Source: an uncultured Gammaproteobacteria bacterium (GTDB taxonomy: Bacteria > Patescibacteriota > Microgenomatia > UBA8517). Taken from it: 64,000 nt of DNA. The translations under genes were made by a program, and so were the position numbers. Below, piece by piece: positions 4,547 to 60,144 of this stretch (position 1 is its first letter; the number at the start of each line of letters is the position of its first letter). Below the pieces are notes generated by a model. The model was given only the letters and a program-made list of their open reading frames with translations. It did no database searches and was not told the DNA's origin. The DNA is taken from positions 269,240-333,239 of the forward strand of contig CAZIMC010000001.1 of assembly GCA_964540475.1 (NCBI GenBank), in the 5' to 3' direction.

Positions 4547-4554
4547 TAAAGCAT

Positions 4555-4848: not shown

Positions 4849-4858
4849 TACAAGGATT

Positions 4859-4880: not shown

Positions 4881-5146
4881 TTCCTCGTTTAAAGAGAGGA
4901 AGAGAACAAGGTTCTGGGGTTACCCACCAGGTTCTTACTCTCATCCTGATTTTTTGTTTAAATAGCAAAGAGCTAGATTTCTAGGTAACCCTTGGTTTTT
5001 AAACTCCTCGAGATATAGCAGAGTACTCATAAAGGGGACTTTTTGATGTCTAAGCATTGACATTTTCACGAAAAAAAATGAAAATCTGAATAAGTAGGAA
5101 GGGGGTGATTTAAATAAATAATTTATCAGTTTGGCAGAATGCACTC

Positions 5147-13831: not shown

Positions 13832-15166
13832 ATGCCTTTTTCACCTGCTAAAAAGCTAATTGCAATATTTCTTCTAGTTTTAATCGCTCTTTATATAAGT
13901 CTGCCAAATAATATTCCTGTAAATATATCAGTTGGAACACTTAAAATTCACAAAGTGCTACACAAGCGGGCAATCGACATTAAAATTGGCGAATTCTCAT
14001 TTCAGAAACAGTTTGATCTTCTTTATGGTTTGGATTTGGCTGGTGGTGCTCACCTAGTCTTTGAGGCGGATACATTGGCGCTTTCAGATAGCGATAAGAA
14101 AAATGCGGTAGAATCAGCAAAGACAATTATTGAGCGAAGAGTCAACCTTTTTGGTATTTCTGAGCCATTAGTCCAAACTTCCCACTTTGAGGGAAAGGAT
14201 CGGATAATTGTTGAGTTGCCGGGAATTCAAGATACCTCCGATGCAGTGGAGTTGATAGGTGCCACCGCACAGTTGATCTTTGCTGAGGTTGTGGAAAACG
14301 AAGGATCGGAAACGTTATCGCCAACTCCGCTTACCGGAGCTGATTTAAAAAGAGCAGAGGTTGTTTATGAGGGAACAACAGGTAGGCCGGCAGTTTCTCT
14401 TAACTTTTCCGATGAAGGAGCAAAAAAGTTTGAGGAATTAACAGAGAAAAACATTGGCAAACCACTAGCAATCCTCCTAGATAACGACTTAGTCTCTGCC
14501 CCTCTTGTACAGGAAAAGATTTCTGGCGGAACTGCGCAAATAAGTGGTAGCTTCTCGGTTGATGAGGCAAAGAGTCTATCAATTCAATTGAATGCAGGAG
14601 CTTTACCAGTCCCTGTTAATTTGGTTGAAGAAAGAATCGTGGGGGCCACTCTTGGAGTCGATTCAATACAAAAAAGCATCAGGGCGGGAATTGTAGGACT
14701 TTCCATGGTAATGTTATTTATGATTCTAACCTATGGCAGATTAGGAATTGTTGCTAGTGCTTCATTGTTAATTTTTGGGATACTCACTTTGGCACTCTAT
14801 AAAGTGATTCCTATCACATTAACTTTGCCCGGGATTGCAGGGTTTTTGCTTTCCGTTGGAATGGCTGTAGATTCAAATATATTGATATTCGAGAGGTTTA
14901 AGGAGGAAAAACAAAAAAGAAGTATTGCAAATGCTTTAGAAGTTTCTTTTGGTCGTGCATGGGATTCAATCAGGGATGCAAATATTGCAACTTTGATTGC
15001 TGCGTTTATTCTAGCCAACCCATTTGATTGGACTTTTCTTCATATTTCAGGACCCGTCAGGGGTTTTGCCATCACTCTTTCATTGGGTGTGGCAATTAGC
15101 TTGTTTACAGGAATTGTAGTCTCGCGAAACTTATTAAGAGTGTTTGTAAAAGAAAGGAGTATATAG
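13832..15166 (+). CDS. secD: Protein translocase subunit SecD
   Basis: N-terminal TM, large periplasmic domain, C-terminal 5 TM block with ...LTLPGIAGFLLSVGMAVDSNILIFERFKEE... (SecD/SecF RND-like motif). Confidence 0.88.
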   Translation: MPFSPAKKLIAIFLLVLIALYISLPNNIPVNISVGTLKIHKVLHKRAIDIKIGEFSFQKQFDLLYGLDLAGGAHLVFEADTLALSDSDKKNAVESAKTIIERRVNLFGISEPLVQTSHFEGKDRIIVELPGIQDTSDAVELIGATAQLIFAEVVENEGSETLSPTPLTGADLKRAEVVYEGTTGRPAVSLNFSDEGAKKFEELTEKNIGKPLAILLDNDLVSAPLVQEKISGGTAQISGSFSVDEAKSLSIQLNAGALPVPVNLVEERIVGATLGVDSIQKSIRAGIVGLSMVMLFMILTYGRLGIVASASLLIFGILTLALYKVIPITLTLPGIAGFLLSVGMAVDSNILIFERFKEEKQKRSIANALEVSFGRAWDSIRDANIATLIAAFILANPFDWTFLHISGPVRGFAITLSLGVAISLFTGIVVSRNLLRVFVKERSI

Positions 15167-15232
15167 CACATAGCGCAAAGACATAGACAGGAGATTGGAA
15201 AGTTTGTTCCTATGCACTATTAACTAAACTTA
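15165..15232. repeat. Copy C of a palindromic intergenic repeat family (left arm agcacatagcgcaaagacatag, right arm ctatgcactattaact)
   Basis: About 80% identity to the left arm of the 20228-20300 copy (agcgcatagtgcaaagcgcatagtgcatgggg). Right arm shared with the 26040-26130 copy (cactatgcgctattaact). Confidence 0.6.
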
Positions 15233-16107
15233 TGGATTGGATGAAATATCGTTACGTTTACTTTTTAATATCTGCGCTTATTGTTGGTGCAGGCATTTTT
15301 GGATTGTTAAAGTGGGGTGTACGACTTGGGATAGATTTTACCGGTGGAACTGTAGTTGAGTATAAAGTGGATAGAAAGCTGGATTTTGGTCAGGTCACCA
15401 GAAGAATCGAAGATGTTGGTATCAAATTAGCTTCAATTCAAGAAACCTCTAATGAAACTATTCTATTAAGACTTGCTCCCTTGACCCCTGAGCAAAAAGG
15501 AGAAATTCATGTGGTTATTAATGAAATTGGTGGAAACGCTAGTGAGTTAAAGTATGAAACTGTTGGGCCAACTATTGGCCCAGAGCTTACTAGAAAAACC
15601 CTATACGCTCTACTTTTAGCAAGTACTGCAATATTCACATGGATTGCTTTTCAATTTAGGAGTTATAAATTTGGTGTATCCGCTGTATTGGCTACAATTC
15701 ATGATGCCTTATTGGTGGTTGGAGGTTTTGCCATTCTTGGTCATTATTTTGCAGCAGAGATTGATTTTTTGTTTGTTACGGCAATTCTGACAGTACTGTC
15801 CTTTTCGGTACACGATACAATCGTTGTATACGACAGGATTCGGGAAACCCAGAAAAAGACGGGTGGGGAAATATACGATCTAGCCAATAAAGCAATAAGT
15901 GAGACAATGGTGCGTTCCTTAAACAACTCATTCACCCTTATCTTTATGCTTGCTGCCCTAATTTTATTGGGTGGAGAAACAACTAGATGGTTTTCGGTGG
16001 CACTTCTAATTGGGACAATCGCAGGAACTTATTCTTCACCTTTTGTTGCTGTTCCCATTCTTGTAACTTGGGATAAACTGGAGAAAAGATTTAGAAAAAA
16101 CATTTAG
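15232..16107 (+). CDS. secF: Protein translocase subunit SecF
   Basis: ...GIDFTGGT... motif, C-terminal TM bundle with ...LSFSVHDTIVVYDRIRE...; immediately follows secD. Confidence 0.88.
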   Translation: MDWMKYRYVYFLISALIVGAGIFGLLKWGVRLGIDFTGGTVVEYKVDRKLDFGQVTRRIEDVGIKLASIQETSNETILLRLAPLTPEQKGEIHVVINEIGGNASELKYETVGPTIGPELTRKTLYALLLASTAIFTWIAFQFRSYKFGVSAVLATIHDALLVVGGFAILGHYFAAEIDFLFVTAILTVLSFSVHDTIVVYDRIRETQKKTGGEIYDLANKAISETMVRSLNNSFTLIFMLAALILLGGETTRWFSVALLIGTIAGTYSSPFVAVPILVTWDKLEKRFRKNI

Positions 16108-16118
16108 TTTCAAACTTA

Positions 16119-16694
16119 ATGAACAAGAAAATACTGCACCGCTTGGCACTGAGTATAATATTTATTCTTCTGGTTTCCGTAATAAATCATTTTGAGGGAG
16201 ATTTAAATCAAACACCAAAAGAGGATACTTCAGAACGGAACGGATCAACTCAAGAGGTTGAAGAAATCCAAGAAGTGATAGGTGTTTCTGGTGAAAAAGC
16301 AAAAGTTGCCAGGGTAATTGATGGGGATACAGTTGTGTTGGATGATGGGAGAACTGTTCGTTATATCGGGATAGACACCCCGGAAATTACGGGAGGTGAA
16401 GAATGTTTTTCCAGAGAGGCCAAGAACCAAAACGAAGAGTTGGTGCTTGGTAAAAATGTGATATTAGAGAAAGACGTATCCGAAACCGACAGATATAATA
16501 GGCTATTAAGATATGTTTATGTCAACTCCCCAGACATGGGGCAAGACATTTTTGTTAATGAGTATTTAGTTCGTGAAGGTTATGCTACGGTTTCAACTTT
16601 TCCTCCGGATGTTAAAAACCAGCAGAGGTTCATGGAAGCTGAAAGAAAGGCTAGGGAAGAAAACAAAGGATTGTGGGGAAGCTGTCCACTTTAA
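16119..16694 (+). CDS. Thermonuclease (staphylococcal nuclease / SNase-like), secreted
   Basis: N-terminal signal/TM; ...ARVIDGDTVVLDDGRTVRYIGIDTPEI... and ...RYNRLLRYVYV...DIFVNEYLVREGYA... match the SNase fold. Confidence 0.8.
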   Translation: MNKKILHRLALSIIFILLVSVINHFEGDLNQTPKEDTSERNGSTQEVEEIQEVIGVSGEKAKVARVIDGDTVVLDDGRTVRYIGIDTPEITGGEECFSREAKNQNEELVLGKNVILEKDVSETDRYNRLLRYVYVNSPDMGQDIFVNEYLVREGYATVSTFPPDVKNQQRFMEAERKAREENKGLWGSCPL

Positions 16695-17036
16695 CTACTT
16701 AAAATATTCTAACGACAGTGTTTCAAAGTCTTTATCAAGAACCTTTAACTGTTTCTGGATACTATCTAGTGCTTCCTGTAGTTCAGGCTTAAGTCTAAAA
16801 TCCAGGACATTTACAATATGTGCCCATTGCTGAAGAAGTTGGCCACGTCTGTTTTCAAGTCCTGTTTTAATAAACTGAAATTGTACGTGTTTACTTAACG
16901 AATGCCATTCAGCAAAGGTTGATAAATATTCCGGGTCATATTCACCCATATCGACAGCTTTTTGAAGCGTCATGGTTGGGGATTTGACAGTTGGTCGGCC
17001 TTTGTTTAACTTTTCTCCCGACCCATCAGGTTCCAT
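16695..17036 (-). CDS. Hypothetical protein
   Basis: ORF only, convergent with the thermonuclease gene; no motif recognised. Confidence 0.35.
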   Translation of the reverse strand: MEPDGSGEKLNKGRPTVKSPTMTLQKAVDMGEYDPEYLSTFAEWHSLSKHVQFQFIKTGLENRRGQLLQQWAHIVNVLDFRLKPELQEALDSIQKQLKVLDKDFETLSLEYFK

Positions 17037-17104
17037 AATTGATTATATCATTCACAATGTCATATTGAACGTGCCATAAAAATAGTGTTTGCTATACTTC
17101 GAAT

Positions 17105-18100
17105 ATGCGCTACTTTTCCACTTTCATTTCTGGTACAGAACAAGTAATTAAAAAATGGCTGGCAGAAAATATAGGTTACAGCTACATAGTAAAACTGTGG
17201 GACGGGCTGGTTATTTATGAAACTTCTGAAGGTATAGATAAGGTGGCTAAAATCCCCATATTTAACAACACATTTATCTTAACTGATACTTATGATGCAA
17301 CTACGGATATGTCGATCCACCAAATTGTCAGAGAAATTATAACAGGCAATACTTTAAATAATAACCCCAATTGGGTGAAAAAATATCGCACATTTCGTGT
17401 AATATACTCCATAGAAAACGAAATCAGTAAAGTTGATAAAGACTTACTTGGCAAGTTAGAGGGCTATGTTTCTGATAAAACTAACCTAAAATTAAATAGG
17501 GGTGGAGCCGATACTGAATTATGGATTTTGAAAAGAAGTGAAGGAGTTATTTTAACTGGCTTTAGGATTACCAAAAACCCAATTGCAGAAAAAACCTTTC
17601 AGAAGGGGCAACTTAGGCCGCAACTGGCATACATTTTAAACTATATTTCCGAGCCGAATAAACAGGATATATTTCTTGACCCCTTTGCAGGTTTTGGCGC
17701 CATACCGTTGGCAAGGAAAAAGTATTTTCCAGCTAAAGAAATAACCGCCAGTGACAAAAGTAGAGCTCAATTAAAAAATTTAAGCAAAACGGGCGGGGTA
17801 GTGATAAAAGACTGGGACGCGCTCAATTTAACGAAGCTTATAGACAACACCGTCAATAGAATTGTAACTGATCCCCCTTGGGGAATTTATAAACAAATGA
17901 ATATTCAAGTTTTTTATCAAAAAATGCTTAATGAATTTACCCGAGTCGTTAAGCACGGAGGTATTATAGTCGTACTAACCGCCCAAAAAGACATATTAGA
18001 GAAACTAATTTATGCTTCAAAAGATCTCAATTTAATGAAAAAACTAGACGTTTTAGTTTCCGGTAAAAAATCGGCTATATACAAATTAAAGAGGAAATGA
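17105..18100 (+). CDS. THUMP-domain RNA (guanine-N2/adenine-N6-type) methyltransferase
   Basis: SAM motif I LDPFAGFGAIPLA and motif IV VTDPPWG (D/N-PP-Y/W); N-terminal about 150 aa consistent with a THUMP domain. Confidence 0.7.
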   Translation: MRYFSTFISGTEQVIKKWLAENIGYSYIVKLWDGLVIYETSEGIDKVAKIPIFNNTFILTDTYDATTDMSIHQIVREIITGNTLNNNPNWVKKYRTFRVIYSIENEISKVDKDLLGKLEGYVSDKTNLKLNRGGADTELWILKRSEGVILTGFRITKNPIAEKTFQKGQLRPQLAYILNYISEPNKQDIFLDPFAGFGAIPLARKKYFPAKEITASDKSRAQLKNLSKTGGVVIKDWDALNLTKLIDNTVNRIVTDPPWGIYKQMNIQVFYQKMLNEFTRVVKHGGIIVVLTAQKDILEKLIYASKDLNLMKKLDVLVSGKKSAIYKLKRK

Positions 18101-18111
18101 GTACTGTACAA

Positions 18112-18714
18112 TTATTTGATATTGTCGAACCAGCAGACAATTTCAGGATTTTGAGTGTTTGCTAAAACTCCCCCGGGATTAATGCCCTTAGACCTTAATT
18201 GTTCAATTTTAGATAAATTATTATGTTTATTGACCATATAAAATCCAAGAATAAGCATGCCACTGGGGGATAAAAGACTTTTTACTTCGTTAAAATTATC
18301 TATCCTATCGGTTGTTCCAAAATCCCAATTATCCCAGACATTCCAGTAGATTAAATTGTATGAATTGGGAAGTCCCAGTTCGGATAGCTGACTAATATTT
18401 TCACTGGATAGTACTGAAAAATTGTTTTCAAAGTCTGGGAAGACTATGGTTTTTGCTTGTTCAATAAAGTTAGGGTTTGTATCAATGCCGTAAGGAATAA
18501 GTTCATGACTTTGCCACTCCTGCAAGCAACGAAGTAAAAACCCGTTTCCACACCCTATGTCTAAAATAGTTCCGGATTGATTAATTGCTTTACCGATAAA
18601 TTTTCGACCTAATTCCCAATATTCAAAACTTGGTGCACTGTACGAACTACCACGAAACACCTGTTTTAAATTGTCTGGAGAGGAAATTATCCTCTTAAAT
18701 TCTTCGGAATACAT
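18112..18714 (-). CDS. Class I SAM-dependent methyltransferase
   Basis: Motif I ILDIGCGNGFLLRCL and motif II/post-I acidic residue; small, about 200 aa. Confidence 0.7.
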   Translation of the reverse strand: MYSEEFKRIISSPDNLKQVFRGSSYSAPSFEYWELGRKFIGKAINQSGTILDIGCGNGFLLRCLQEWQSHELIPYGIDTNPNFIEQAKTIVFPDFENNFSVLSSENISQLSELGLPNSYNLIYWNVWDNWDFGTTDRIDNFNEVKSLLSPSGMLILGFYMVNKHNNLSKIEQLRSKGINPGGVLANTQNPEIVCWFDNIK

Positions 18715-18756
18715 CTATAATAATCCATTTCACTCTAAACAACAAAACTTTCAAAT

Positions 18757-19272
18757 TCAGTTATTTAATTTACTTCTAACAATATTCACACACTCTTCAA
18801 TCGTAAATTTTTCGGTATCCAATATTATAGCTTGCGGAAGAAAAGTTTCATCTAGGTGGTTTTGAATTTTTTCTATGGTATCTTTTCTTAACGGTTTGCG
18901 GCAGCCTTCTTTTACTCCTGGTCTTGCTCTATCGCGCATAAGTAATGTTTTTGAAGAACAAGTAATTTGAAAGACCAAGACTTTGATTCCTAACTGTTGA
19001 GCCTCATTGGTGGCTAAGGGAATAATGAAAGGATCATAGAAAATTTTCTCCATTACAACAGAAAATCCTTGGTTCAAGAGGTATTTAAGTGCAGAAAGTG
19101 CACATTCATCTACGAACTTCTGTTCTCTTAGTTTTGCTTCGTCGGAGAAGAAATCCTTAAAATTGTCCACCTTTAACCAGACAATCCCTTCATCAAAATT
19201 ACGTAAGCTTTTTGCTAAAGTTGTCTTTCCACTCGCCGGAGCACCCCTTATAATTACTAGAAACTGATTCAT
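18757..19272 (-). CDS. P-loop NTPase / kinase (possibly PNK-like)
   Basis: Walker A GAPASGKTTLAKSL at the N-terminus; about 170 aa; stop overlaps the cca start (operon). Confidence 0.55.
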   Translation of the reverse strand: MNQFLVIIRGAPASGKTTLAKSLRNFDEGIVWLKVDNFKDFFSDEAKLREQKFVDECALSALKYLLNQGFSVVMEKIFYDPFIIPLATNEAQQLGIKVLVFQITCSSKTLLMRDRARPGVKEGCRKPLRKDTIEKIQNHLDETFLPQAIILDTEKFTIEECVNIVRSKLNN

Positions 19273-20672
19273 ATATATTTGTATATTTCTTTCATTTTTT
19301 GCAAAAGAGCTGTTTTATTGTTTTCGAGTTTTTTCTCCACCACTTCTTGAAAAAGTTTCTCGAGAATTTCGCCGACCTTTGGTCCTGAGCGAAGTCGAAG
19401 GACTTTCATTACGTCGTTGCCATCGATTTTTAAATCGCGAACTGAAAATGGCTCTTTTTGAACTTCAATAATCCTTCTTTTAAAGTCTTCATGCCGCCAG
19501 GAGGTTTCTTTAGCGCCACTTCCCAGTCGGTCTGCGACCCGTAAGATAAGCATGTCTTCGATGTTGTCTTTACCGACATTTCTAATAAACCGTCTTATCG
19601 CAGAATCGGTCTGCATTTCAGTAACTGAAAATTGATGCCAGCGAACCAAAGTAAGGAGTTTGTCTTTTTCTTTTTTAGAGAAGCGTAGTCTGTCTGCAAT
19701 ATTTGCTGCAATTTTAGTACTTACCATCTCGTGGTTGTAGAAAGTTATTACACCCGTATCCAGTTTTTTATAAGTTTGAGGTTTGCCGATATCGTGTATA
19801 AGGCAAGCAAAACGTACGACCGGATCTTGGGATTTACAGTACTTTAATGACATTAAAAGGTGTGTCCCCACATCGTAAATGTGGTGCCTGCCTGGGGACT
19901 TTTGCTCAACCCCAAATGTTTTCTCCAGTTCCGGTAGCACCTCCTCCAATAGTCCGCTTTCTCGGAAATTTAGTATTCCGTCATAAGGGTTTGGCGAAGA
20001 AAGAATTTTAAATAACTCTTCTTTAACTCTTTCCTTAGCAATTTTATTAATTAAAGTAGAATTTTCCTGGATTGCCAAAAAAGTATTTTTTTCAATGGTA
20101 AAACCCAATTGTGATGCAATACGAACAGCCCGCATCATGCGCAAAGCATCTTCTGCAAATCTCTCGCTTGGATTGCCCACTGCTCGGATTAACTTATCTT
20201 TAAGGTCGGATTGGCCACTGAAGGGATCAAGTAAGCGCATAGTGCAAAGCGCATAGTGCATGGGGTTCTTACTATTTGCTATGCCCTTTTCGCTCTGTTC
20301 TAACTTAAGAGCCATTGCATTAATCGTAAAATCCCGCCTTGCCAAATCTTCATTTAAAGATTTACCCCAAGACACCTTGTCTGGTCTTCTGTGATCCGAA
20401 TATCCGTGTTCGGTTCTAAAAGTAGTTATTTCGTACGGACTGGGGGAACTTTCGTGAACAATACCAACAGTACCGAACTGGTTATCATAAAAGCCTTCAG
20501 GAAAGATTTCGAGAATTTGTTCAGGAGTGGCGTTGGTTGTAAAATCCCAGTCTTCGACAATGTTTCCGGTCAAAATGTCACGCACTGCCCCGCCGACGAT
20601 ATAAATTTCAAATCCGGCTTTTTGAAATTTCTGGAGTATATATATAACAAATTCCGGTAGTTCAAGTTTCAT
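19269..20672 (-). CDS. cca: CCA-adding tRNA nucleotidyltransferase with C-terminal HD domain
   Basis: GGAVRDILTG...DWDFTT head motif, RRDFTINAMA, ...EDALRMMRAVR..., HD domain HDIGK. Contains an insertion of about 20 aa (ALKLEQSEKGIANSKNPMHYALCTMR) encoded by a copy of the repeat element. Confidence 0.85.
   Translation of the reverse strand: MKLELPEFVIYILQKFQKAGFEIYIVGGAVRDILTGNIVEDWDFTTNATPEQILEIFPEGFYDNQFGTVGIVHESSPSPYEITTFRTEHGYSDHRRPDKVSWGKSLNEDLARRDFTINAMALKLEQSEKGIANSKNPMHYALCTMRLLDPFSGQSDLKDKLIRAVGNPSERFAEDALRMMRAVRIASQLGFTIEKNTFLAIQENSTLINKIAKERVKEELFKILSSPNPYDGILNFRESGLLEEVLPELEKTFGVEQKSPGRHHIYDVGTHLLMSLKYCKSQDPVVRFACLIHDIGKPQTYKKLDTGVITFYNHEMVSTKIAANIADRLRFSKKEKDKLLTLVRWHQFSVTEMQTDSAIRRFIRNVGKDNIEDMLILRVADRLGSGAKETSWRHEDFKRRIIEVQKEPFSVRDLKIDGNDVMKVLRLRSGPKVGEILEKLFQEVVEKKLENNKTALLQKMKEIYKYI
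20228..20300. repeat. Copy A of the palindromic repeat family, located in-frame inside cca
   Basis: gcgcatagtgcaaagcgcatagtgcatggggttcttactatttgctatgcccttttcgctctgttctaacttaag. Shares ttcttactatgcccttt and ctttgcactatgcgc (as reverse complement) with the 26040-26130 copy. Confidence 0.6.
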
Positions 20673-20714
20673 ATACTAATTATATTACCAAATCGTGCGA
20701 TATAATATGTTTAC

Positions 20715-22400
20715 ATGCAGGATAAACGGTGGGAAGTGTTGTACAAACCCAAAACCCAAAATTCAAAATTCAATAGTGAAGAGATTGTCAATATTTTGCT
20801 TACAAATCGGGGAGTAAAGACTGAAAAACAGAAGATTGAGTTTTTTAACCCCAAAGACCCGTTAGAAATTTCTTTGAAAGAGCTTGGAATAGACGGAAAA
20901 GCTGTGGGACTTGCCATAAATCGGATTAGGCAGGCCAGAGAAAAGGAGGAAAATGTATTGGTGTATGGTGACTATGATGCGGATGGGATTTGTGCGACTG
21001 CAATTCTCTGGGAAATATTGTATGAGTTGGGGGTAAAAGCGTTACCATATATTCCCGAAAGGTTTTCCGAAGGGTATGGACTTAACATTGAAAGTATTAA
21101 AAATTTAAAGAAAAGAGACCCGAATCTTTCTTTGATTATAACCGTTGACCATGGAATAGTTGCTGAGAAAAAGGTTGATTTAGCAAGGGATTTGGGGATT
21201 GATCTGATTATTACCGATCACCATCAACCAGGAGAGAAAAAACCCAAACCGTTAAGCTTAATTCATACAACCAAAATAGGTGGAGCGGCAGTTTCCTGGG
21301 TTTTGGCCAGAGAATTAGTTAGAAATCTTAATCCCGGGAAACTTACTGTAGTAGAGCAATCCTTAGAACTTGTTGCATTGGGGACAATTGCTGATCAAAT
21401 TCCGCTAATTGGTCCAAATAGGTCGTTTGTAAGACATGGCCTTACAAAGCTTCGGTCAACCAAAAGACTTGGGTTTTTAGCACTTTTTGAGCTTGCAGGT
21501 ATTAATAGCCAGGAAATAAACCCATATCATATTGGATTTGTTATCGCACCCAGATTAAACGCAATGGGCAGACTCGAGCATGCCATGGAGTCACTTAGAC
21601 TTCTTTGTACCAAAGACAAAGTTAGGGCACAAAAATTGGCACTTCACTTAAATAAAGTTAATTTGGAACGACAGGGGGTTGTTGAAAAAGTAGTCGAGCA
21701 CGCTAAAAAAATATTGGGTAAAGATGTTGCTTCAAAAGTTATTGTTATTGCACACAAAAGTTACCACGAAGGCGTAATAGGGCTTGCTGCAAGCCGTCTG
21801 GTGGAGGAATACTACAAACCAACCATTGTTATTTCGAAAAGTGGTGAAATTTCCAAAGCCTCGGCCAGGTCAATTGCAGGCTTTAATATCATTGAAACAA
21901 TCAGGAAAATCGAAGAATATTTATTGGAGGGTGGAGGCCACCCCATGGCGGCCGGTTTTTCCATTAATACCAAAAACATCAAGCTTTTTGCCAAAAAGTT
22001 TGAGAAGCTCTCTTTGAATCTTCTGACTGAAGATATTTTAAAAAGAACATTGCGTATAGATATGGAGTTATTTTTTGATCAAATAAATGAGGGGTTACAT
22101 TCAACACTAGAAGAATTCGAACCAATTGGGCTTAACAATCCTACTCCAACATTTATTTCGCGAGGAGTAGAGGTTGTTTCAACCAGAATTATTGGCAAGG
22201 ATGGCGCACACCTTAAATTAAGCTTGAAACAGAATGAAAAAACTATTGATGCAGTTGGGTTTGGTATGGCTGCATTTTATGACTCATTAAAAAAGAGTAA
22301 TATAATTGATGTGGTTTATACAATCGACGAAAATGTCTGGAATGGAAGCCGTAGCTTGCAACTTAAGGTAAAAGATTTACGAGCCGGACTCAACAACTGA
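20715..22400 (+). CDS. recJ: Single-stranded-DNA-specific exonuclease RecJ
   Basis: DHH motifs VLVYGDYDADGICATAIL, ITVDHGI, ITDHH; DHHA1-like C-terminal region (GGGH). Confidence 0.85.
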   Translation: MQDKRWEVLYKPKTQNSKFNSEEIVNILLTNRGVKTEKQKIEFFNPKDPLEISLKELGIDGKAVGLAINRIRQAREKEENVLVYGDYDADGICATAILWEILYELGVKALPYIPERFSEGYGLNIESIKNLKKRDPNLSLIITVDHGIVAEKKVDLARDLGIDLIITDHHQPGEKKPKPLSLIHTTKIGGAAVSWVLARELVRNLNPGKLTVVEQSLELVALGTIADQIPLIGPNRSFVRHGLTKLRSTKRLGFLALFELAGINSQEINPYHIGFVIAPRLNAMGRLEHAMESLRLLCTKDKVRAQKLALHLNKVNLERQGVVEKVVEHAKKILGKDVASKVIVIAHKSYHEGVIGLAASRLVEEYYKPTIVISKSGEISKASARSIAGFNIIETIRKIEEYLLEGGGHPMAAGFSINTKNIKLFAKKFEKLSLNLLTEDILKRTLRIDMELFFDQINEGLHSTLEEFEPIGLNNPTPTFISRGVEVVSTRIIGKDGAHLKLSLKQNEKTIDAVGFGMAAFYDSLKKSNIIDVVYTIDENVWNGSRSLQLKVKDLRAGLNN

Positions 22401-22616
22401 AACAGCAGTTGTTTCTATTACTGGTTTCTCTTTTACATCTGGGTTATTATCTTTAATAGGTCGAAGTTCGGGATCGTCTGCTGGTAAACGGAAAGGTAAA
22501 ACCCCTCCGTATTCGCCGGTGGGGTAATAGCCGCGCCCAGAAGTGTCTTTTTCTTTACGTCCCATATGGTGTGCGAAATTTTCACACAAGTGCAATTTTA
22601 GAAATTGTTATCCGTA

Positions 22617-22645
22617 TTGTCAACCCTGTAAATTGCTACTACAAT
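22617..22645 (+). promoter_or_regulatory. Sigma70-like promoter TTGTCA-17-TACAAT directly upstream of aspS (near-leaderless)
   Basis: ttgtca 22617-22622, tacaat 22640-22645. The ATG at 22656 is only about 10 nt downstream of the -10 element and has no Shine-Dalgarno. Confidence 0.4.
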
Positions 22646-22655
22646 ACGAATTGTT

Positions 22656-24041
22656 ATGCAAAGAACGTTATCTATTGAAACACCGGAAAAAATAGGTAAA
22701 GAGATTATGCTTCTCGGTTGGATAGATAGTATCCGCGATCATGGAAAAATTACATTTTTGGACCTTCGCGACAGAAGCGGGCTCGTGCAATGCGTAGGTG
22801 AGAGTTTGCAGAAAGTAAGCCATGAATCGGTTGTCAGGATAGTTGGCGAAGTTGTAAAAAGACCGGAAAGACTGGTAAATCCCAACATAATAACGGGAAC
22901 CGTCGAGATACAGGTAAAAGAAATGCATGTAATATCAGAAGCAGAAGAACTCCCAATACCAGTAAGTACCGATGGCCACGATATTGATGAAGAAGTAAGA
23001 AATAAGTTCCGGTATTTAGATTTAAGACGTCCCCGAATGAGTACAAATATTAGATTGCGTTCAAAAGCTGCCCAGTTTATGAGAAACTGGTTAACTGCAC
23101 GCGATTTTGTTGAGATTGAAACTCCCATCTTAACTAAAACAACCCCTGAAGGTGCGCGGGACTTTCTTGTTCCTTCACGGCTTCAGCCTGGTAAATTCTA
23201 TGCGCTTCCCCAATCACCCCAACAATATAAGCAACTCTTGATGGTTGCAGGATTTGAGAGATATTTTCAACTTGCTCGATGCTTTCGGGATGAAGATCCA
23301 AGGAAGGATAGGGCATATGGGGAGTTTACCCAGCTTGATATTGAAATGTCGTTTGTGACACAAGAGGACATCCTACAGTTAACTGAAAGTCTGTTCACAG
23401 AATTGGTAAGAGAAATTTTCCCTGAAAAGCGAATTTCCAAATCTCCTTGGCCAAGAATATCCCACAAAGAGGCGATAGAGAAATACGGGACCGATAAACC
23501 AGACCTAAGAGAAAATAAAAATGATCCAAACGAATTGGCATTTAGTTGGACGATTGATTTTCCGCTCTTCACAGAGCAATCCCAAGAGGATTTTTACCAT
23601 GGTTCGGGAACCTCTAAATGGGCACCCTCCCATCACATGTTTACTTCCCCGCACCCTAAAGATTTGGGGTTACTTGACTCTGATCCTTCCCGTGTGAGGG
23701 GTTTACAGCACGATCTGGTGCTTAATGGCTTTGAGGTAGGCGGTGGGAGTATTAGAATTCATGATGCAATAGTGCAGCAGAAGATATTTGATTTAATTGG
23801 TTTCACCGAAAAACAAAAGAGCGAGTTTAGCCACATGCTAACAGCATTTAAATATGGAGTTCCACCCCACGGGGGAATAGCCCCAGGAGTGGACCGTTTC
23901 GTTTATGTTGCATTGGGAGAACCATCAATTCGTGAAGTTATGGCTTTTCCAGCTTCTGCGTCGGGCCAGACTGCAGTCATGGACGCTCCTTCTGAAGCCT
24001 CGACTGATCAACTTAAGGAACTCGGGATAAAATTACTGTAA
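22656..24041 (+). CDS. aspS: Aspartate--tRNA ligase (short form lacking the GAD insertion domain; possibly non-discriminating)
   Basis: Class II motifs, including FRDEDPRKDRAYGEFTQLDIEMSF (motif 2 region) and GGGSIRIHD / GIAPGVDRFV (motif 3). 461 aa versus about 590 for GAD-containing bacterial AspRS. Confidence 0.88.
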   Translation: MQRTLSIETPEKIGKEIMLLGWIDSIRDHGKITFLDLRDRSGLVQCVGESLQKVSHESVVRIVGEVVKRPERLVNPNIITGTVEIQVKEMHVISEAEELPIPVSTDGHDIDEEVRNKFRYLDLRRPRMSTNIRLRSKAAQFMRNWLTARDFVEIETPILTKTTPEGARDFLVPSRLQPGKFYALPQSPQQYKQLLMVAGFERYFQLARCFRDEDPRKDRAYGEFTQLDIEMSFVTQEDILQLTESLFTELVREIFPEKRISKSPWPRISHKEAIEKYGTDKPDLRENKNDPNELAFSWTIDFPLFTEQSQEDFYHGSGTSKWAPSHHMFTSPHPKDLGLLDSDPSRVRGLQHDLVLNGFEVGGGSIRIHDAIVQQKIFDLIGFTEKQKSEFSHMLTAFKYGVPPHGGIAPGVDRFVYVALGEPSIREVMAFPASASGQTAVMDAPSEASTDQLKELGIKLL

Positions 24042-24043
24042 AG

Positions 24044-24991
24044 ATGAAATTTCTGTTTGATGGCCGGAATCGATTATTTTTTCTATCTTATGTTTCTTTG
24101 GTGCTTATAGTTTCGGTTTCATTGGTCTCAGTTAAGGAACAATCTCTGGCCGGCGTAATAATTCAGAAAGTCAAATCTCCCTTTATGGTAAGGACCGTCT
24201 CTAATGTTTCATTAATGCCGGTTTTAGCATCTACTACCGATTTTCCGATTCTTACGGCCCAGAGTGTTATTGCAGTCGATCTTGATTCTGGTGTTACGCT
24301 ATATGAGAAAAACCCAGACAATAAACTTCTTCCGGCTTCAACGACCAAAATAATGACAGCATTAGTTGCGCTCGACCATTACCCCAAGGAGTATGTGCTC
24401 GAAGTCGGAAATGTGAGCGTAATTGGGCAAAAGATGGGGCTTATTAGTGGTGAAAAAATAACAGTTGAGAATCTTTTATACGGGCTTTTAGTTTTTTCTG
24501 CCAACGACGCAGCTGAGGTATTAGCGGCAAGTTACCCCGGGGGAAGACAACTTTTCATTGAGGCGATGAACCTAAAGGCGCAAGAATTATATCTAACCAA
24601 AACACATTTTGAGAATCCCACAGGCCTTGACAGCGCAAACCACTATTCAACTGCAAGGGATATGGTAAGGCTTGCAGAAGTGGCAATGAGGGATCCTTTT
24701 TTCGCCCAAATTGTAGCCACAAGCGAGAAAACTGTAACAAGTGTTGACGGACAGTTTGTGCACCGGTTAAGAAATATCAATGAGCTTCTGCGAACCGTCG
24801 AGGGTGTAAAGGGGGTCAAAACCGGCTGGACGGCTAACGCCCGAGAAAATCTGGTTACATATATAAAGCGTGACGGTAGATCAATTTTAATAGGGATACT
24901 TGGAAGTCAGGATAGATTTGGAGAAACAAAAGAACTTATTGATTGGGTATTTGAGAATTACAGTTGGGAAAGTGTCCGTTATTCACCGTAA
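24044..24991 (+). CDS. D-alanyl-D-alanine carboxypeptidase (peptidase S11, PBP5-like)
   Basis: SxxK ASTTKIM, SxN SAND, KTG KTGWT; N-terminal TM/signal. Confidence 0.82.
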   Translation: MKFLFDGRNRLFFLSYVSLVLIVSVSLVSVKEQSLAGVIIQKVKSPFMVRTVSNVSLMPVLASTTDFPILTAQSVIAVDLDSGVTLYEKNPDNKLLPASTTKIMTALVALDHYPKEYVLEVGNVSVIGQKMGLISGEKITVENLLYGLLVFSANDAAEVLAASYPGGRQLFIEAMNLKAQELYLTKTHFENPTGLDSANHYSTARDMVRLAEVAMRDPFFAQIVATSEKTVTSVDGQFVHRLRNINELLRTVEGVKGVKTGWTANARENLVTYIKRDGRSILIGILGSQDRFGETKELIDWVFENYSWESVRYSP

Positions 24992-26022
24992 TAGTCGGCT
25001 GTTACGGCTGGGACAAAAGCCAAGAACCCATTGTCACCCTCAAAGGCAACAACTGGTTGATAGAAGTCGCTTGGGACATTGGGATCAAAGTAGGCAAGAT
25101 ATATTTTTCGGATCGTCACCATTCCATTGGGATTGTTTCCAGGTGAAGCAATGTATCCGCCCCCACCGTTCAACTCATTCAAGGCAATTTCGGCAGTTTT
25201 TATAGGATAGGTCGCAAATCTTTGTTCGTCTACAGGGAAATATTGATATTGGCCAGCGATGATTTGTTTACCTCTTTCTCTTGAACCTGAAACGATAAAC
25301 CAGACATTACTTTGTTTAGTGTTAGCAGTCAAGCTGGGCATATTTTCAAAGCTTTTTCTGAAAAAGTTAATCTTCGTAAAATTGGCCTCGGATAGAGAAA
25401 TTGCTCCGATTAGATTACGGTCCTCGACCTTTAAGAACTCATGTTCCGTGGATCCCGTTAAGTCCGCGGGTAGCAGTTCTGCTGCCGACAGGAAAGACCT
25501 AATTTGAGTAGCTGCGATTTCTGGTGCTGGAGCCCGCAAGTCCACAATTACGGGATCTGACGCTAGATTTGTGCTAATCGAAAAAGCACCCGAGACAATG
25601 TTGATCTCGATCCTTGAATCAGTAGTCTGATTACTAAACCTATACACGGTTTCTGAAACTGATTCCTCTACGTCAAACCCTAATGTACGCGCCTTCGATC
25701 TGGCATTGTCTAGTGATAGTAACGTAGGAGATAGCTTGGGCATAAAGTATACCTTTGCTTGCAAAGGAAGTGTGGGTAAATCTCCTGTTGGAGTTTCAAC
25801 CCTAAGTTGTGTAATTGCCGGCCTATCTTTTACTGGAAAGTTAATTCTGGGAAGTCGCCCAAAAGTTAAAGTTGGCGGTGGGGGAGGCTCGGGGAAGTAG
25901 TGCCTGTAAACACCAACTCCAATATCTAAACTGACCTTTCCAATAATTAGAAAAATTGCAAAAAATAGACCCCAACGGATAACTTTGCGTGTTGCGATTG
26001 CTACATGTGTTAGTCTGGTCAT
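24979..26022 (-). CDS. Hypothetical membrane-anchored protein (N-terminal TM, Pro-rich linker)
   Basis: ORF 347 aa; TM near the N-terminus, then PEPPPPPT; no catalytic motif recognised. 3' end overlaps the dac 3' end by 13 nt (convergent). Confidence 0.45.
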   Translation of the reverse strand: MTRLTHVAIATRKVIRWGLFFAIFLIIGKVSLDIGVGVYRHYFPEPPPPPTLTFGRLPRINFPVKDRPAITQLRVETPTGDLPTLPLQAKVYFMPKLSPTLLSLDNARSKARTLGFDVEESVSETVYRFSNQTTDSRIEINIVSGAFSISTNLASDPVIVDLRAPAPEIAATQIRSFLSAAELLPADLTGSTEHEFLKVEDRNLIGAISLSEANFTKINFFRKSFENMPSLTANTKQSNVWFIVSGSRERGKQIIAGQYQYFPVDEQRFATYPIKTAEIALNELNGGGGYIASPGNNPNGMVTIRKIYLAYFDPNVPSDFYQPVVAFEGDNGFLAFVPAVTADYYGE

Positions 26023-26039
26023 AGTTTAGTACACAGAGC

Positions 26040-26130
26040 ATAGAATATAGTGCATAGTGTGGAGACTATCATTAAAATATTCTTACTATGCCCTTTGCAC
26101 TATGCGCTATTAACTCCCTTAAGTATATCT
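26040..26130. repeat. Copy B of the palindromic repeat family (upstream of gltX)
   Basis: tagaatatagtgcatagtgtggag ... ttcttactatgccctttgcactatgcgctattaactcccttaag. The right arm is the reverse complement of the left arm of the 20228-20300 copy (gcgcatagtgcaaag / ctttgcactatgcgc). Confidence 0.6.
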
Positions 26131-26200
26131 TTTAACCAATCTTACTTCAATTTATTCTTTTGTGGCGGAAAGTAGGTAAACGCGATACAATTCAAATAAT

Positions 26201-28505: not shown

Positions 28506-28835
28506 ATGAGTAAATTATTTTTTGATCACTTAATTGACCTAACCGGTTTAGAGAAAGAGATTAAGAAGCTTACAAGTTCAGAGGAGGAGAAACAAGAGCT
28601 ATGGCTCATTGTTGATGATATTGTCCACCACAAAGTGATAGGTCTAATTCTTGCAAAGCTGCCACGTGAGCACCACGATGAATTCTTAAATTTCTTTCAT
28701 GCTGCCCCGTACGATGACAATTTAATAGCATATCTCAAAGAAAAAGTGAACGGTAATATAGAGGAATTAATAAGCCAAGAGATAGGAAGCCTGACATACA
28801 AGATACTACAAGATCTTAAAAATAAAGAACCTTAA
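28506..28835 (+). CDS. Hypothetical protein
   Basis: ORF only, 109 aa; no motif recognised. Confidence 0.4.
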   Translation: MSKLFFDHLIDLTGLEKEIKKLTSSEEEKQELWLIVDDIVHHKVIGLILAKLPREHHDEFLNFFHAAPYDDNLIAYLKEKVNGNIEELISQEIGSLTYKILQDLKNKEP

Positions 28836-28851
28836 GTATTAAAGCCCCTTA

Positions 28852-28900
28852 CTCGCTTCGCCAATATTTGGATTTGCTTCGAAGCCATTTTCGAAGCGAG
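28852..28900. terminator. Bidirectional stem-loop between convergent genes (ctcgcttcg ... cgaagcgag with inner palindrome gcttcgaagc)
   Basis: 9-bp outer stem plus inner 10-bp palindrome. Lies between the 28506..28835 (+) gene and the 28919..29125 (-) gene. Confidence 0.5.
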
Positions 28901-28918
28901 AAAGGTAGGTTTAAAAAG

Positions 28919-47217: not shown

Positions 47218-47220
47218 TTT

Positions 47221-60120: not shown

Positions 60121-60144
60121 GTAAAGTCTATGCTAGCATGAATA

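What the first reader, a model, noticed from the sequence alone, without database searches (positions are those of the whole stretch)
15165..26130. Palindromic repeat element of about 75-100 bp in three copies, one inserted in-frame inside the CCA-adding enzyme gene
Copies sit at about 15165-15232 (secD-secF spacer), 20228-20300 (inside cca) and 26040-26130 (upstream of gltX). They share a left module (agcRcatagYgcaaagMcatagtgcatgggg) and a right module (ttcttactatgcccttt...ctttgcactatgcgctattaact). The arms are mutually reverse-complementary (gcgcatagtgcaaag versus ctttgcactatgcgc), i.e. MITE/REP-like terminal inverted repeats. The cca copy is 72 nt with no stop in frame and encodes an extra ~LKLEQSEKGIANSKNPMHYALCTM between the conserved RRDFTINAMA and LLDPFSGQ blocks, where CCA enzymes normally have only about 5-7 residues. 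In-frame tolerated insertion of small palindromic elements is known from Rickettsia RPEs but is unusual elsewhere. A possible degenerate fourth copy is at 60121-60144 (ctatgctagcatgaatagtgac).
Basis: seen in the sequence. Interest (0 to 1): 0.65.

Follow-up and report, generated by a model that had tools for sequence, protein, structure and literature searches.

The report
In-frame hairpin repeat inside CCA enzyme gene
A small hairpin-forming repeat built from 7-base units occurs three times in this Woesebacteria (candidate phyla radiation) genome piece, once read through in frame inside the essential CCA-adding enzyme gene. The same protein loop carries unrelated repeat inserts of this kind in many related species.

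Summary
Three related copies lie at 15164-15226 (secD/secF junction), 20231-20305 (inside cca, minus strand) and 26035-26114 (next to the start of a hypothetical gene, upstream of gltX). Pairwise similarity beats window-wide nulls (p 0.005 to <0.0005). The suggested fourth copy at 60121 is chance.

The arms are not simple terminal inverted repeats. They are inverted arrays of tandem heptamers (GYGCAWA).

The cca copy is open in one of six frames, the one cca uses. It adds 19 residues relative to solved CCA enzymes, modelled as a lengthened beta-hairpin.

In 120 Woesebacteria orthologs this loop ranges from 7 to 34 residues and carries at least four unrelated insert families, scattered on the tree. 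Two contigs that are 100% identical over the roughly 1.9 kb and 0.7 kb on either side of it differ in a ~250-nt patch around the loop that carries different inserts.

Relatives show empty sites for all three positions. In another genome a different, octamer-based family occupies both the cca loop and the same gltX-upstream site.

Best reading: a non-autonomous, RPE/REP-like hairpin repeat family that persists only at the few permissive sites. How it spreads is unknown. I found no transposase, and target-site duplication is unresolved. This is a new variant of known kinds.

The parts
15164..15226 (+). Copy A, the most degenerate. It lies between the secD stop codon (15164-15166) and the secF ATG (15232). 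Left arm 15164-15192 (AGCACATAGCGCAAAGACATAG...), right arm 15204-15224 (CCTATGCACTATTAACT).
   Evidence: A-C p<0.0005, A-B p=0.005; arm E=0.0015 and 1.3. The RNA fold is weak (-11 kcal/mol, z -0.8). The empty site in relatives has secD/secF overlapping as ATGA (L001, L085, L082).
20231..20305 (+). Copy B, inside cca and antisense to it in element orientation. Left arm 20231-20261 is two 14-nt units, AAGCGCATAGTGCA x2. Right arm 20273-20305 is degenerate. It encodes LEQSEKGIANSKNPMHYALCTMR of Cca.
   Evidence: I9, D4; period 14, 2.0 copies, 100%; E 1.8e-6 and 7.3e-5. Open in 1 of 6 frames. RNA fold on the + strand is -26.9 kcal/mol, z -2.65; on the cca mRNA strand -20.1, z -0.99.
26035..26114 (+). 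Copy C, in the divergent spacer between a conserved hypothetical gene (start at 26022, minus strand) and gltX (26201). Left arm 26035-26064, right arm 26082-26114 (ACTATGCCCTTTGCACTATGCGCTATTAACT).
   Evidence: E 2.4e-6 and 1.5e-4. RNA fold on the + strand is -23.3 kcal/mol, z -3.05. The spacer is 178 nt here, against 41 nt (L001), 38 nt (L082) and 14 nt (L085) in relatives.
19269..20672 (-). cca, a class II CCA-adding enzyme with an HD domain (467 aa), host of copy B. The insert lies between motif B (RRDFTINA, residues 112-119) and LLDPFSGQ (147-154).
   Evidence: Pfam PolyA_pol, PolyA_pol_RNAbd, HD and tRNA_NucTran2_2. The PDB alignment shows a 19-aa gap. AF2 model, pLDDT 89.6: strands 121-127 and 140-148 form a long hairpin whose tip (131-137) has pLDDT <50.
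13832..16107 (+). The secD (13832-15166) and secF (15232-16107) operon that contains copy A in its intercistronic junction.
   Evidence: Pfam. Synteny is conserved in all relatives fetched.
24979..27496 (.). Divergent gene pair, a conserved hypothetical (24979-26022, minus) and gltX (26201-27496, plus), whose spacer holds copy C.
60121..60144 (.). The claimed degenerate fourth copy. Rejected: it is the 24-nt spacer between two divergent ORFs.
   Evidence: p 0.4-0.7; no hit.

Best explanation
The three sequences are decaying copies of one small, non-autonomous, hairpin-forming repeat family of a Candidatus Woesebacteria genome.

**Architecture (shown).** Each copy has a left array of 2-4 tandem 7-nt units (GYGCAWA, here alternating GCGCATA/GTGCAAA), a short non-repeat centre (TGGRG ... 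TTCTTACTAT), the inverse array, and a tail (CTATTAACT).

**Behaviour.** Copies of a genome's own family sit at several sites (shown); I infer that the family spreads or is homogenised within a genome. In these tiny, gene-dense genomes copies are retained only at a handful of permissive places. These are intercistronic junctions, divergent promoter spacers, and the tips of surface loops of proteins.

**Inside cca (frame constraints shown, selection inferred).** Only variants that are a multiple of three in length and stop-free in the reading frame can survive, because the gene is read straight through the element. (GCGCATA)n and (TGCATAG)n arrays carry stops in every frame cycle. (GTRCAAA)n and (CTATGCA)n arrays are open. 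The coding copy is therefore an imperfect hairpin. It is translated into a longer two-stranded beta-hairpin between motif B and the LLDPFSGQ block (the start of motif C, by my recollection of CCA-enzyme motif naming), apparently away from the catalytic core.

**Across species (partly shown).** The same loop is occupied again and again by unrelated repeat families. Insert-bearing alleles move between lineages by homologous recombination of short tracts.

**Not shown.** The enzymology of spread, and whether a copy has any function. Spread could be by ssDNA-hairpin transposition as for REP/RAYT or IS200/605, by templated copying during break repair at hairpins, or by slippage plus gene conversion. 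I regard the elements as essentially selfish or neutral.
For: **One family in the window.** See the observation check. Homology among A, B and C extends beyond the repeat units into the centre and the tail.

**Heptamer arrays.** The cca inserts of relatives are tandem arrays: (GTACAAA)4 ... (CTATGCA)4 in L001, and (AGTACAA)n ... (GTACTNT)n in L002. In L083 they are octamers, (AGAGTGAA)4 ... (ACTCTTAY)4. Period-7/8 arrays number 0-4 per locus (most loci about 20 kb), found in 7 of 8 sources, against 0.05-0.1 in shuffles.

**Insertion, not ancestral sequence.**
- Cca loops range from 7 to 34 aa in 120 orthologs of 67-78% identity.
- Solved enzymes have a 7-residue turn.
- L085 is empty at all three sites; L001 is empty at sites A and C.

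**Recurrent occupancy.**
- Insert families are scattered on a tree built with the loop masked. Sister sequences differ in state: P0002 against P0004, P0040 against P0103, P0010 against P0058.
- L001 and L086 are 100% identical for about 1.9 kb and 0.7 kb on either side, but only 33-87% identical in a ~250-nt patch around the loop that carries different inserts.

**Sharing within a genome.**
- Window B against C.
- In L083 the cca insert and the gltX-upstream element align over 72 nt, score 58 against a null maximum of 24.
- In L084 there is a 32-nt exact match between the cca loop and the gltX coding sequence.
- In L004 the secD-secF spacer element has a second copy about 2 kb away.

**Coding filter.** B is open in 1 of 6 frames; A and C in none.

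**Structure.** The AF2 model shows the insert as an extended beta-hairpin with a disordered tip.

**Other loops.** A RecJ loop (about aa 204) carries heptamer or hairpin inserts in L004, L083 and L002.

**Precedent.** Convergent pairs of heptamer arrays between aligned ORFs are described in Xanthomonas (PMC4692102).
Against: - No target-site duplication could be defined; the flanks are too diverged from the nearest relative (78% Cca identity).
- No transposase, RAYT or reverse transcriptase among 66 window ORFs. This is only 64 kb of the genome.
- All three window copies lie within 11 kb and none in the other 53 kb. That could instead point to local copying or gene conversion.
- With DNA energy parameters none of the copies folds better than shuffles (z +0.1 to -1.5), and copy A is not significant as RNA either. 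The hairpins here are weak.
- Loops are stable within 90%-identity clusters (7 of 7 identical in the P0002 cluster), so there is no sign of ongoing activity.
- The same heptamer motif occurs in many unrelated phyla (77 loci against about 9 expected by my own estimate). A simple lineage-specific mobile element does not explain that.
Confidence: 0.55

Rival explanations
1. In-situ origin. The arrays arise locally by replication slippage of 7-nt units (simple sequence repeats), and the inverse arm arises by template switching. Similarity between sites reflects convergent, slippage-prone units or ectopic gene conversion, not movement of an element.
For: - In L084 the cca insert is a plain direct array, exactly 21 nt (three heptamers) longer than the basal loop.
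- Its 32-nt twin lies in a native-length stretch of gltX. That looks like templated copying or conversion rather than insertion.
- Heptamer repeats are the commonest long simple sequence repeats in prokaryotes and are attributed to slippage (Mrazek 2007, as summarised in PMC4679880).
- The same unit type recurs in unrelated phyla.
Against: - A, B and C share the non-repeat centre and tail as well as the unit order.
- In L083 the two copies align end to end, including the loop.
- Length polymorphism within 90% clusters is rare, with no stepwise unit variation.
- Relatives have clean empty sites.
Confidence: 0.2
2. Functional cis-element. The hairpins are RNA or DNA structures kept by selection, for example for mRNA stabilisation or processing between cistrons as with REP/BIME, for translational coupling of secF, or as binding sites for a conserved protein. 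The cca copy would be a by-product or a regulatory hairpin.
For: - The intercistronic position matches REP elements, the Xanthomonas heptamer pairs and several cross-phylum loci that lie between operon genes.
- The unit GCRCAWR is conserved across phyla.
- B and C fold significantly as RNA on the + strand.
- The L083 in-frame hairpin is very stable (-35.8 kcal/mol, z -7.2).
- Copy A lies between the AAGGAG at the end of secD and the secF ATG, so a hairpin could bring them together. This is inference only.
Against: - All three sites are empty in close relatives with the same gene order.
- Copy B folds best on the strand antisense to cca.
- Copy A does not fold better than shuffles.
- There is no consistent strand asymmetry in 66 cross-phylum loci, 27 against 36.
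- There is no Rfam match.
- Promoter and terminator scans are at chance level.
Confidence: 0.12
3. Adaptive hypervariability of the Cca loop. Diversifying selection on a surface hairpin, for example to escape a phage or toxin protein that targets Cca, drives the turnover. The repeats are merely the raw material.
For: - Extreme length and sequence variation confined to one loop of an otherwise 67-78% identical protein.
- A recombination patch centred on the loop between otherwise identical contigs.
- The loop differs sharply within one 90% cluster, P0064 against P0146.
Against: - The inserts match intergenic DNA in the same genome.
- RecJ shows the same behaviour.
- Many lineages keep a minimal 7-9 aa turn.
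- Other recombination patches without indels occur nearby, so the patch at the loop is not unique.
Confidence: 0.06
4. Assembly or binning artefact that creates chimeric repeats.
For: All the data are metagenome assemblies. Mosaic identity patterns can also arise when an assembler switches between strains.
Against: The same inserts are recovered identically in independent assemblies and sources: seven full-length members in the P0002 cluster and 21 contigs for P0010. The ORFs stay intact, and the elements are far shorter than reads or k-mer repeat problems would produce.
Confidence: 0.02

Closest known systems
Rickettsia palindromic elements (RPE; Ogata et al. 2000, from my own knowledge; listed among prokaryotic MITEs in the review PMC10969869)
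   Same: Small palindromic repeats dispersed in a reduced genome. Some copies are inserted in frame in essential protein-coding genes and translated, and are tolerated because they sit on the protein surface.
   Different: - RPEs are 100-150 bp with family-specific unique consensus sequences; these are 60-80 nt and built from tandem 7-nt units.
- The host phylum is different (Patescibacteria).
- Here one loop is hit recurrently by several families.
- Only one in-frame copy of this family is seen in the window.
- No comparison with RPE consensus sequences was possible.
Convergent (inverted) pairs of heptamer repeat arrays in Xanthomonas (GGGAATC; Rehm et al. 2015, PMC4692102). More generally, long simple sequence repeats and cyanobacterial STRR heptamers.
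   Same: Arms made of tandem heptamers, in two arrays of opposite orientation close together. They lie preferentially between aligned ORFs, with genome-specific units and many loci per genome.
   Different: [quoted passage not shown]
- Here the unit is GYGCAWA and copies share a non-repeat centre and tail.
- Here one copy is translated.
REP/BIME and REPIN-RAYT systems (PMC3116915)
   Same: Short imperfect palindromes in intercistronic spacers that are non-autonomous. Populations are specific to each genome, and the hairpin is the likely recognised feature.
   Different: - No RAYT found in 64 kb.
- No conserved GTAG-type head.
- The arms are tandem arrays.
- REPs are extragenic by definition, whereas one copy here is coding.
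MITEs such as Correia/NEMIS, ERIC and Nezha (review PMC10969869)
   Same: Size range, inverted arms, lack of coding capacity, and occasional in-frame or gene-fusing insertions.
   Different: No demonstrable target-site duplication, no related autonomous insertion sequence, and the arms are not unique terminal repeats.
TAACTGA heptamer repeats of Beggiatoaceae, Cyanobacteria and Bacteroidetes (MacGregor 2015, PMC4679880)
   Same: - A heptamer unit shared by distant phyla with no evident transfer mechanism.
- Mostly intergenic and just upstream of start codons.
- Occasional in-ORF copies at the periphery of proteins.
- Orientation-dependent stop codons.
   Different: Those are almost always direct repeats (one inverted case in 170). 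Here the inverted arrangement is the rule and the in-frame copy is internal to a catalytic domain.
Small dispersed repeats (SDR) of Nostoc (Elhai et al. 2008; from memory, the paper could not be read)
   Same: Very small mobile repeats associated with hairpins and tandem heptamers.
   Different: SDRs are 21-27 nt units inserted into such contexts. I could not verify details, so this is only a lead.

Membership tests
Rickettsia palindromic elements (RPE-like in-frame palindromic repeats) | Dispersed multi-copy palindromic repeat within one genome | tested here: met
   Three copies in 64 kb with significant pairwise similarity. The genome-wide count could not be tested.
Rickettsia palindromic elements (RPE-like in-frame palindromic repeats) | Copies inserted in frame in protein-coding genes, with the ORF and the host protein retained | tested here: met
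   cca reads through copy B. There is a 19-aa insertion relative to the PDB enzymes, orthologs with basal loops exist, and the AF2 fold is intact.
Rickettsia palindromic elements (RPE-like in-frame palindromic repeats) | Sequence homology to the RPE-1 to RPE-8 consensus; Rickettsiales host | tested here: not met
   The host is Candidatus Woesebacteria. The element is 60-80 nt of heptamer units. No RPE consensus library was available, so sequence homology itself was not tested.
MITE | Unique terminal inverted repeats | tested here: inconclusive
   The arms are inverted but consist of tandem 7-nt units. Within-copy complementarity is weak. The outermost AGTWWATAG/CTATTAACT may be true termini.
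MITE | Target-site duplication flanking the element | tested here: inconclusive
   Comparison of filled and empty sites shows short similar strings (AGTA/AAGTATA) on both sides of copy C and of the L083 element. The flanks are too diverged to call a duplication.
MITE | A related autonomous insertion sequence or transposase in the genome | tested here: not met
   No transposase among 66 window ORFs scanned. The rest of the genome could not be tested.
REP / REPIN-RAYT | Extragenic location only | tested here: not met
   Copy B lies inside the cca coding sequence.
REP / REPIN-RAYT | Associated RAYT (Y1 HUH transposase) gene | tested here: not met
   None in the window. The whole genome is not available: the source is absent from genome contigs, because the window's own three pattern matches were not returned.
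Heptamer simple-sequence-repeat inverted pairs (Xanthomonas GGGAATC type; STRR / long simple sequence repeats) | Tandem arrays of a 7-nt unit | tested here: met
   TRF finds period 14 (two alternating heptamers) in B. Perfect heptamer arrays occur in the orthologous inserts.
Heptamer simple-sequence-repeat inverted pairs (Xanthomonas GGGAATC type; STRR / long simple sequence repeats) | Two arrays in convergent orientation close together, between aligned ORFs | tested here: met
   Copy A lies between secD and secF. Arms are inverted in A, B and C. The description is in PMC4692102.
Heptamer simple-sequence-repeat inverted pairs (Xanthomonas GGGAATC type; STRR / long simple sequence repeats) | Copy-number (length) polymorphism by slippage between close strains | tested here: not met
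   Loops are identical within 90% clusters. The single exception is a 10-aa indel, not a multiple of one unit.
Known RNA families (Rfam 15) | Match to a curated covariance model | tested here: not met
   No relevant hit at E<=1 in 14500-27000.

The most novel reading that the evidence does not exclude
Woesebacteria, and perhaps many other phyla that share the GCRCAWR unit, possess an undescribed trans-acting mechanism that writes or rewrites hairpins made of short tandem units at defined chromosomal sites, including the tips of protein loops. Each genome would stamp its own unit family onto the same sites. The supporting pattern is that the cca loop and the hyp-gltX spacer carry the heptamer family in the window and an unrelated octamer family in L083. 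That would be a new kind of site-directed, structure-templated DNA insertion or conversion system. It would also be a previously unrecognised source of protein-loop innovation in ultra-small genomes.
Probability: 0.15. Interest if true: 0.85.

Novelty: new variant of a known kind. Interest (0 to 1): 0.62.

Why it matters
In-frame survival of selfish palindromic repeats in essential genes is classically a Rickettsia curiosity. Finding the same phenomenon in candidate phyla radiation bacteria has three consequences.

- **Scope.** Here the repeat architecture is different (inverted heptamer arrays), and one enzyme loop has been re-occupied many times by unrelated families. Repeat-driven loop growth may therefore be a general feature of tiny, gene-dense genomes where few neutral sites exist.
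- **A comparative system.** There are 120 or more Cca alleles with basal, heptamer, octamer and hairpin inserts. These can be used to ask how hairpin repeats spread, how recombination moves them, and how much extra peptide a nucleotidyltransferase head domain tolerates.
- **Annotation.** Peptide strings such as MHYALCTM, VQSTKYK and SLAQGKP in proteins of uncultured bacteria are translated repeats, not conserved motifs.

The cross-phylum recurrence of the same 7-nt unit remains unexplained and is worth following.

Tried and rejected
- **Fourth copy at 60121-60144.** Chance-level similarity.
- **Known RNA family.** Nothing in Rfam.
- **Promoter or terminator role.** Counts are at the shuffle level, and no terminator-like site falls on the elements.
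- **ssDNA hairpin stability.** DNA-parameter folds are not better than shuffles. The idea that the better-folding strand marks an ssDNA or lagging-strand mechanism rests only on G-U pairs in 2 of 3 copies, and is not supported in 66 cross-phylum loci (27 against 36).
- **Single ancient insertion inherited vertically.** Rejected by the tree with the loop masked and by the L001/L086 mosaic.
- **Contingency-locus behaviour (rapid unit gain and loss).** Not seen within 90% clusters.
- **'Arm degeneration in B was forced by stop codons'.** Only partly true. Arrays of (GCGCATA)n cannot be coding, but a C-like arm would be open in the cca frame, so I do not claim it.
- **Genome-wide copy count.** The source genome is not in genome contigs; the scan returned other phyla only.
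- **Metagenome scan.** Not run. Every pattern specific to the Woesebacteria copies was either too short (hundreds of chance hits expected) or so long that it would match only this genome, which exists only as one NCBI record.
- **Viral contigs.** Only 4 matches; not followed up.
- **Transposase, RAYT or reverse transcriptase in the window.** None.
- **Elhai 2008.** The paper could not be retrieved.
- **Peptide search for other proteins carrying the insert.** Not run, because 8-10 residue matches cannot reach significance in a database of 5.8 billion sequences.

Full report
**1. What is in the window**

The window comes from a Candidatus Woesebacteria genome (Patescibacteria, candidate phyla radiation). 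The Cca protein is identical to a single NCBI record on a 440-kb contig. Its best named relatives are Woesebacteria MAGs.

The region 12-29 kb encodes DUF3048, a conserved 194-aa protein, SecD, SecF, an SNase-like protein and several small genes. It then encodes Cca (minus strand), RecJ, AspS, an S11 peptidase, a conserved hypothetical (minus strand) and GltX. This gene order is conserved in all eleven related loci fetched.

**2. The observation**

The three copies exist. The core GCRCATAGYGCA occurs four times against 0.38 expected. The left arm of B and the right arm of C are 96% complementary over 24 nt.

Local alignment scores against about 2000 random window segments give A-B p=0.005, A-C p<0.0005 and B-C p<0.0005. 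The proposed fourth copy at 60121 scores at chance, p 0.4-0.7. A profile of the six arms finds only those arms in the 64 kb.

Beyond the arms, the copies share a centre (CATAG-TGGRG ... TTCTTACTAT / TTGTTCCTAT) and a 3' tail (CTATTAACT, or TCTAACT in B). They therefore descend from one progenitor over their whole length. All three have the same orientation on the + strand.

Each copy keeps one good arm. Within a copy the two arms pair poorly. As RNA, B and C fold better than shuffles on the + strand (z -2.65 and -3.05), but A does not. With DNA parameters none is significant. These are old, decaying copies.

**3. Anatomy: inverted arrays of heptamers**

TRF reports a perfect 14-nt period in B, which is two alternating heptamers, GCGCATA and GTGCAAA. 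The DNA of orthologous cca inserts makes this plain:

| Locus | Relation to window | Insert |
|---|---|---|
| L001 | 78% Cca identity | (GTACAAA)4 then (CTATGCA)4 |
| L002 | GW2011_GWA2_40_7 | (AGTACAA/AGCACAA)n then (GTACTNT)n |
| L004 | | (ACAGTGC)n then (CTATGCA)n |
| L083 | | octamers, (AGAGTGAA)4 then (ACTCTTAY)4 |
| L084 | | plain direct array (ATGCCAA ATTCCAA ATGGCAA ATGCCAA), exactly 21 nt longer than the basal loop |

The peptide MHYALCTM is simply (ATGCACT)n read through its three frames. Period-7/8 arrays number 0-4 per locus (most loci about 20 kb), and are found in 7 of 8 sources, against 0.05-0.1 in shuffles.

**4. The cca copy is a real in-frame insertion in a permissive loop**

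Solved class II CCA-adding enzymes read RRDFTINAMAMTEDLKIIDPFGG. The window protein has 19 extra residues at that point.

Among 120 orthologs of 67-78% identity, the stretch between RRDFTINA and IDPF is 7-34 residues long. There are 31 sequences with 7-9 residues, and a class with 12-13.

The AlphaFold model (61-sequence alignment, pLDDT 89.6) places the insert as two long strands, 121-127 and 140-148. The tip (131-137) has low confidence. This is an extension of the native beta-hairpin.

B is open in exactly one of six frames, the cca frame. A and C have stops in all six. Arrays of GCGCATA or TGCATAG contain a stop in every frame cycle, whereas GTRCAAA and CTATGCA arrays are open. This explains why coding copies use units that are not perfectly complementary, and so form imperfect hairpins.

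In frame does not mean weakly structured, however. The L083 insert folds at -35.8 kcal/mol, z -7.2, on the sense strand.

**5. Empty sites**

- L085 has the 7-aa loop, overlapping secD/secF and a 14-nt hyp-gltX spacer. All three sites are empty.
- L001, the closest relative, has the ATGA overlap of secD/secF and a 41-nt hyp-gltX spacer.

A and C are therefore insertions relative to relatives.

**6. A hot spot, not a single event**

The loop carries at least four unrelated insert families:

| Family | Peptide signature |
|---|---|
| GTRCAWA heptamers | VQST...LCTM |
| A small hairpin | RLASLAQGKPS |
| An octamer or other family | ESKRVKEWKK...S.S..L |
| CCAAATK-type heptamers | KCQIPNGKCQI, LQINSKL |

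On a neighbour-joining tree built with the loop masked, these families are interspersed and sister sequences differ in state.

The clearest case is L001 against L086. The two contigs are 100% identical for about 1.9 kb upstream and 0.7 kb downstream. They are only 33-87% identical in a ~250-nt patch centred on the loop. One carries the heptamer insert (27-aa loop) and the other the SLAQGKP hairpin (17-aa loop).

Insert alleles are therefore swapped by short-tract homologous recombination. Similar patches without indels occur elsewhere in the same contigs, so recombination is general in these populations.

Within 90%-identity clusters the loops are stable. There is one 10-aa indel and one heavily substituted loop. 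This is not a rapidly slipping contingency locus.

**7. Genome-specific families at shared sites**

- In the window, the heptamer family sits in the cca loop, the secD-secF junction and the hyp-gltX spacer.
- In L083, an unrelated octamer family sits in the cca loop and again in the hyp-gltX spacer, next to the start of the same hypothetical gene. The two copies align over 72 nt, score 58 against a null maximum of 24.
- In L084, the cca insert shares a 32-nt exact match with gltX coding sequence 7 kb away.
- In L004 and L002, the secD-secF spacer holds yet other heptamer palindromes (TATCGGN, ACGAAT). The L004 one has a second copy nearby.
- A RecJ loop near residue 204 shows the same behaviour. 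L004 has heptamers (WKMEDGKWKI), L083 has FKIDDSRFK, and L002 has a perfect 11-nt hairpin.

There are two readings. Either very few sites in these compact genomes tolerate insertions, so whichever family is active ends up there. Or existing hairpins attract new ones, or are overwritten by gene conversion. The data do not separate these.

**8. Beyond the phylum**

A scan of one genome per species for CTATG-N1-2-CTTTGCRCTATGYGC returned 77 loci (78 matches), none from Patescibacteria. My estimate of the chance expectation is about 9, from 1.2e12 positions at 7.3e-12 per position.

About six hits are coding coincidences in thiolase (RYALCTMC). Most of the rest are intergenic heptamer arrays in Desulfobacterota, Omnitrophota, Nitrospirota, Planctomycetota, Acidobacteriota and others. 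In 28 of 66 loci the inverse array lies within 100 nt upstream, and some lie between operon genes. I have no explanation for why the same unit recurs so widely.

**9. Comparison with known systems**

Convergent pairs of heptamer arrays between aligned ORFs are documented in Xanthomonas (PMC4692102). Heptamers are the commonest long simple repeats in prokaryotes (summarised in PMC4679880). A heptamer shared by distant phyla, with occasional in-ORF copies, is known for TAACTGA.

In-frame palindromic repeats are the hallmark of Rickettsia RPEs (my own knowledge; cited in reviews found). Full-text searches found no report of such elements in Patescibacteria.

The finding therefore combines two known phenomena in a new host and adds the recurrent hot spot. 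I file it as a new variant of a known kind, not as a member of RPE, MITE or REPIN. For each of those, at least one defining feature was not met or could not be shown (see the membership table).

**10. Mechanism and confidence**

Shown:
- the family relationship and the heptamer architecture;
- the insertion status, in-frame translation and predicted structural position;
- recurrent occupancy of the loop;
- recombinational exchange of alleles;
- within-genome sharing of a family between sites.

Inferred:
- selfish or neutral status;
- the selection filter for permissive sites and for stop-free units.

Unknown:
- the enzyme or process that copies the element.

I put 0.55 on the non-autonomous hairpin-repeat model. 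I put 0.2 on purely local slippage, template switching and conversion, and 0.12 on a functional cis-element. The remainder goes to adaptive loop variation or artefact.

Noticed in passing
window 20745-20773 (N-terminus of recJ, ORF 20715-22400): Two adjacent perfect heptamer arrays (AAACCCA x2.4, CAAAATT x2.4) are translated as KPKTQNSKFNS. L004 has a related array (KRKTQNAKW) at the same place in RecJ, at L004 5548-5578.
   Followed up: partly
window about 21327-21350 (RecJ residues about 204-211), and L004 4964-4999, L083 and L002 recJ: A second in-frame hot spot. The same RecJ loop carries heptamers (WKMEDGKWKI) in L004, FKIDDSRFK in L083 and a perfect 11-nt hairpin (GTCGGACCCTT/AAGGGTCCGAC, VGPFAEGSDL) in L002. 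The window has LNPGKLTV there.
   Followed up: partly
window 28846-28905: A strong hairpin just after ORF 28506-28835 (CCCCTTACTCGCTTCG...CGAAGCGAGAAAGG). RNA fold is -25.7 kcal/mol, z -3.6, on both strands. Its stem shares ACTCGCTTCGC with the 'SLAQGKP' insert family of other Cca genes (L086). It may be a terminator or a member of that second repeat family.
   Followed up: partly
window 43634-48314: An apparent defence island: an EcoRI-like adenine methyltransferase (43634-44770), a GmrSD-N/HNH nuclease (44767-45936), a ThsB-like TIR protein (46177-46905) and a PolB-exonuclease/RNase H-like protein (47667-48314).
   Followed up: no
L001 versus L086 (whole 6.9 kb overlap): Two contigs from different metagenomes are 100% identical over long stretches, interrupted by sharply bounded patches of 55-90% identity (cca loop, secD 4711-4890, secF/secD 3450-4700). 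This indicates frequent short-tract recombination between diverged Woesebacteria lineages, or strain switching by the assembler.
   Followed up: partly
L005-L081 (genome-contig hits): The heptamer unit GCRCAWR and its inverse CTATGCG/CTTTGCG form intergenic arrays and hairpins in many unrelated phyla, often next to arrays of other heptamers (L013, L019, L035, L071). Six hits are instead a conserved thiolase C-terminal motif (RYALCTMCIGVGQG) that happens to encode the same DNA.
   Followed up: partly
L084 3292-3323 (gltX CDS) and L084 about 10365-10396 (cca loop): There is a 32-nt exact identity between a native-length stretch of GltX (LNAKFQMANAKF) and the Cca loop insert of the same genome. 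This suggests ectopic templated copying between two genes 7 kb apart.
   Followed up: partly
window 15150-15235: The AAGGAG at the end of secD, which lies a few bases before the secF start in relatives without the element, is separated from the secF ATG by copy A. If the hairpin forms, it would bring the two within about 10 nt. No other Shine-Dalgarno-like sequence precedes secF. This is speculative, because the fold is not significant.
   Followed up: no
window 26023-26200, compared with the L001/L082/L084 spacers: Relatives without copy C have a compact promoter-like TTGAGT-17-TACAAT upstream of gltX. In the window the TACAAT is retained at about 26186-26191, but the element lies where the -35 region would be, so gltX and hypothetical-gene promoter geometry must differ.
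   Followed up: no
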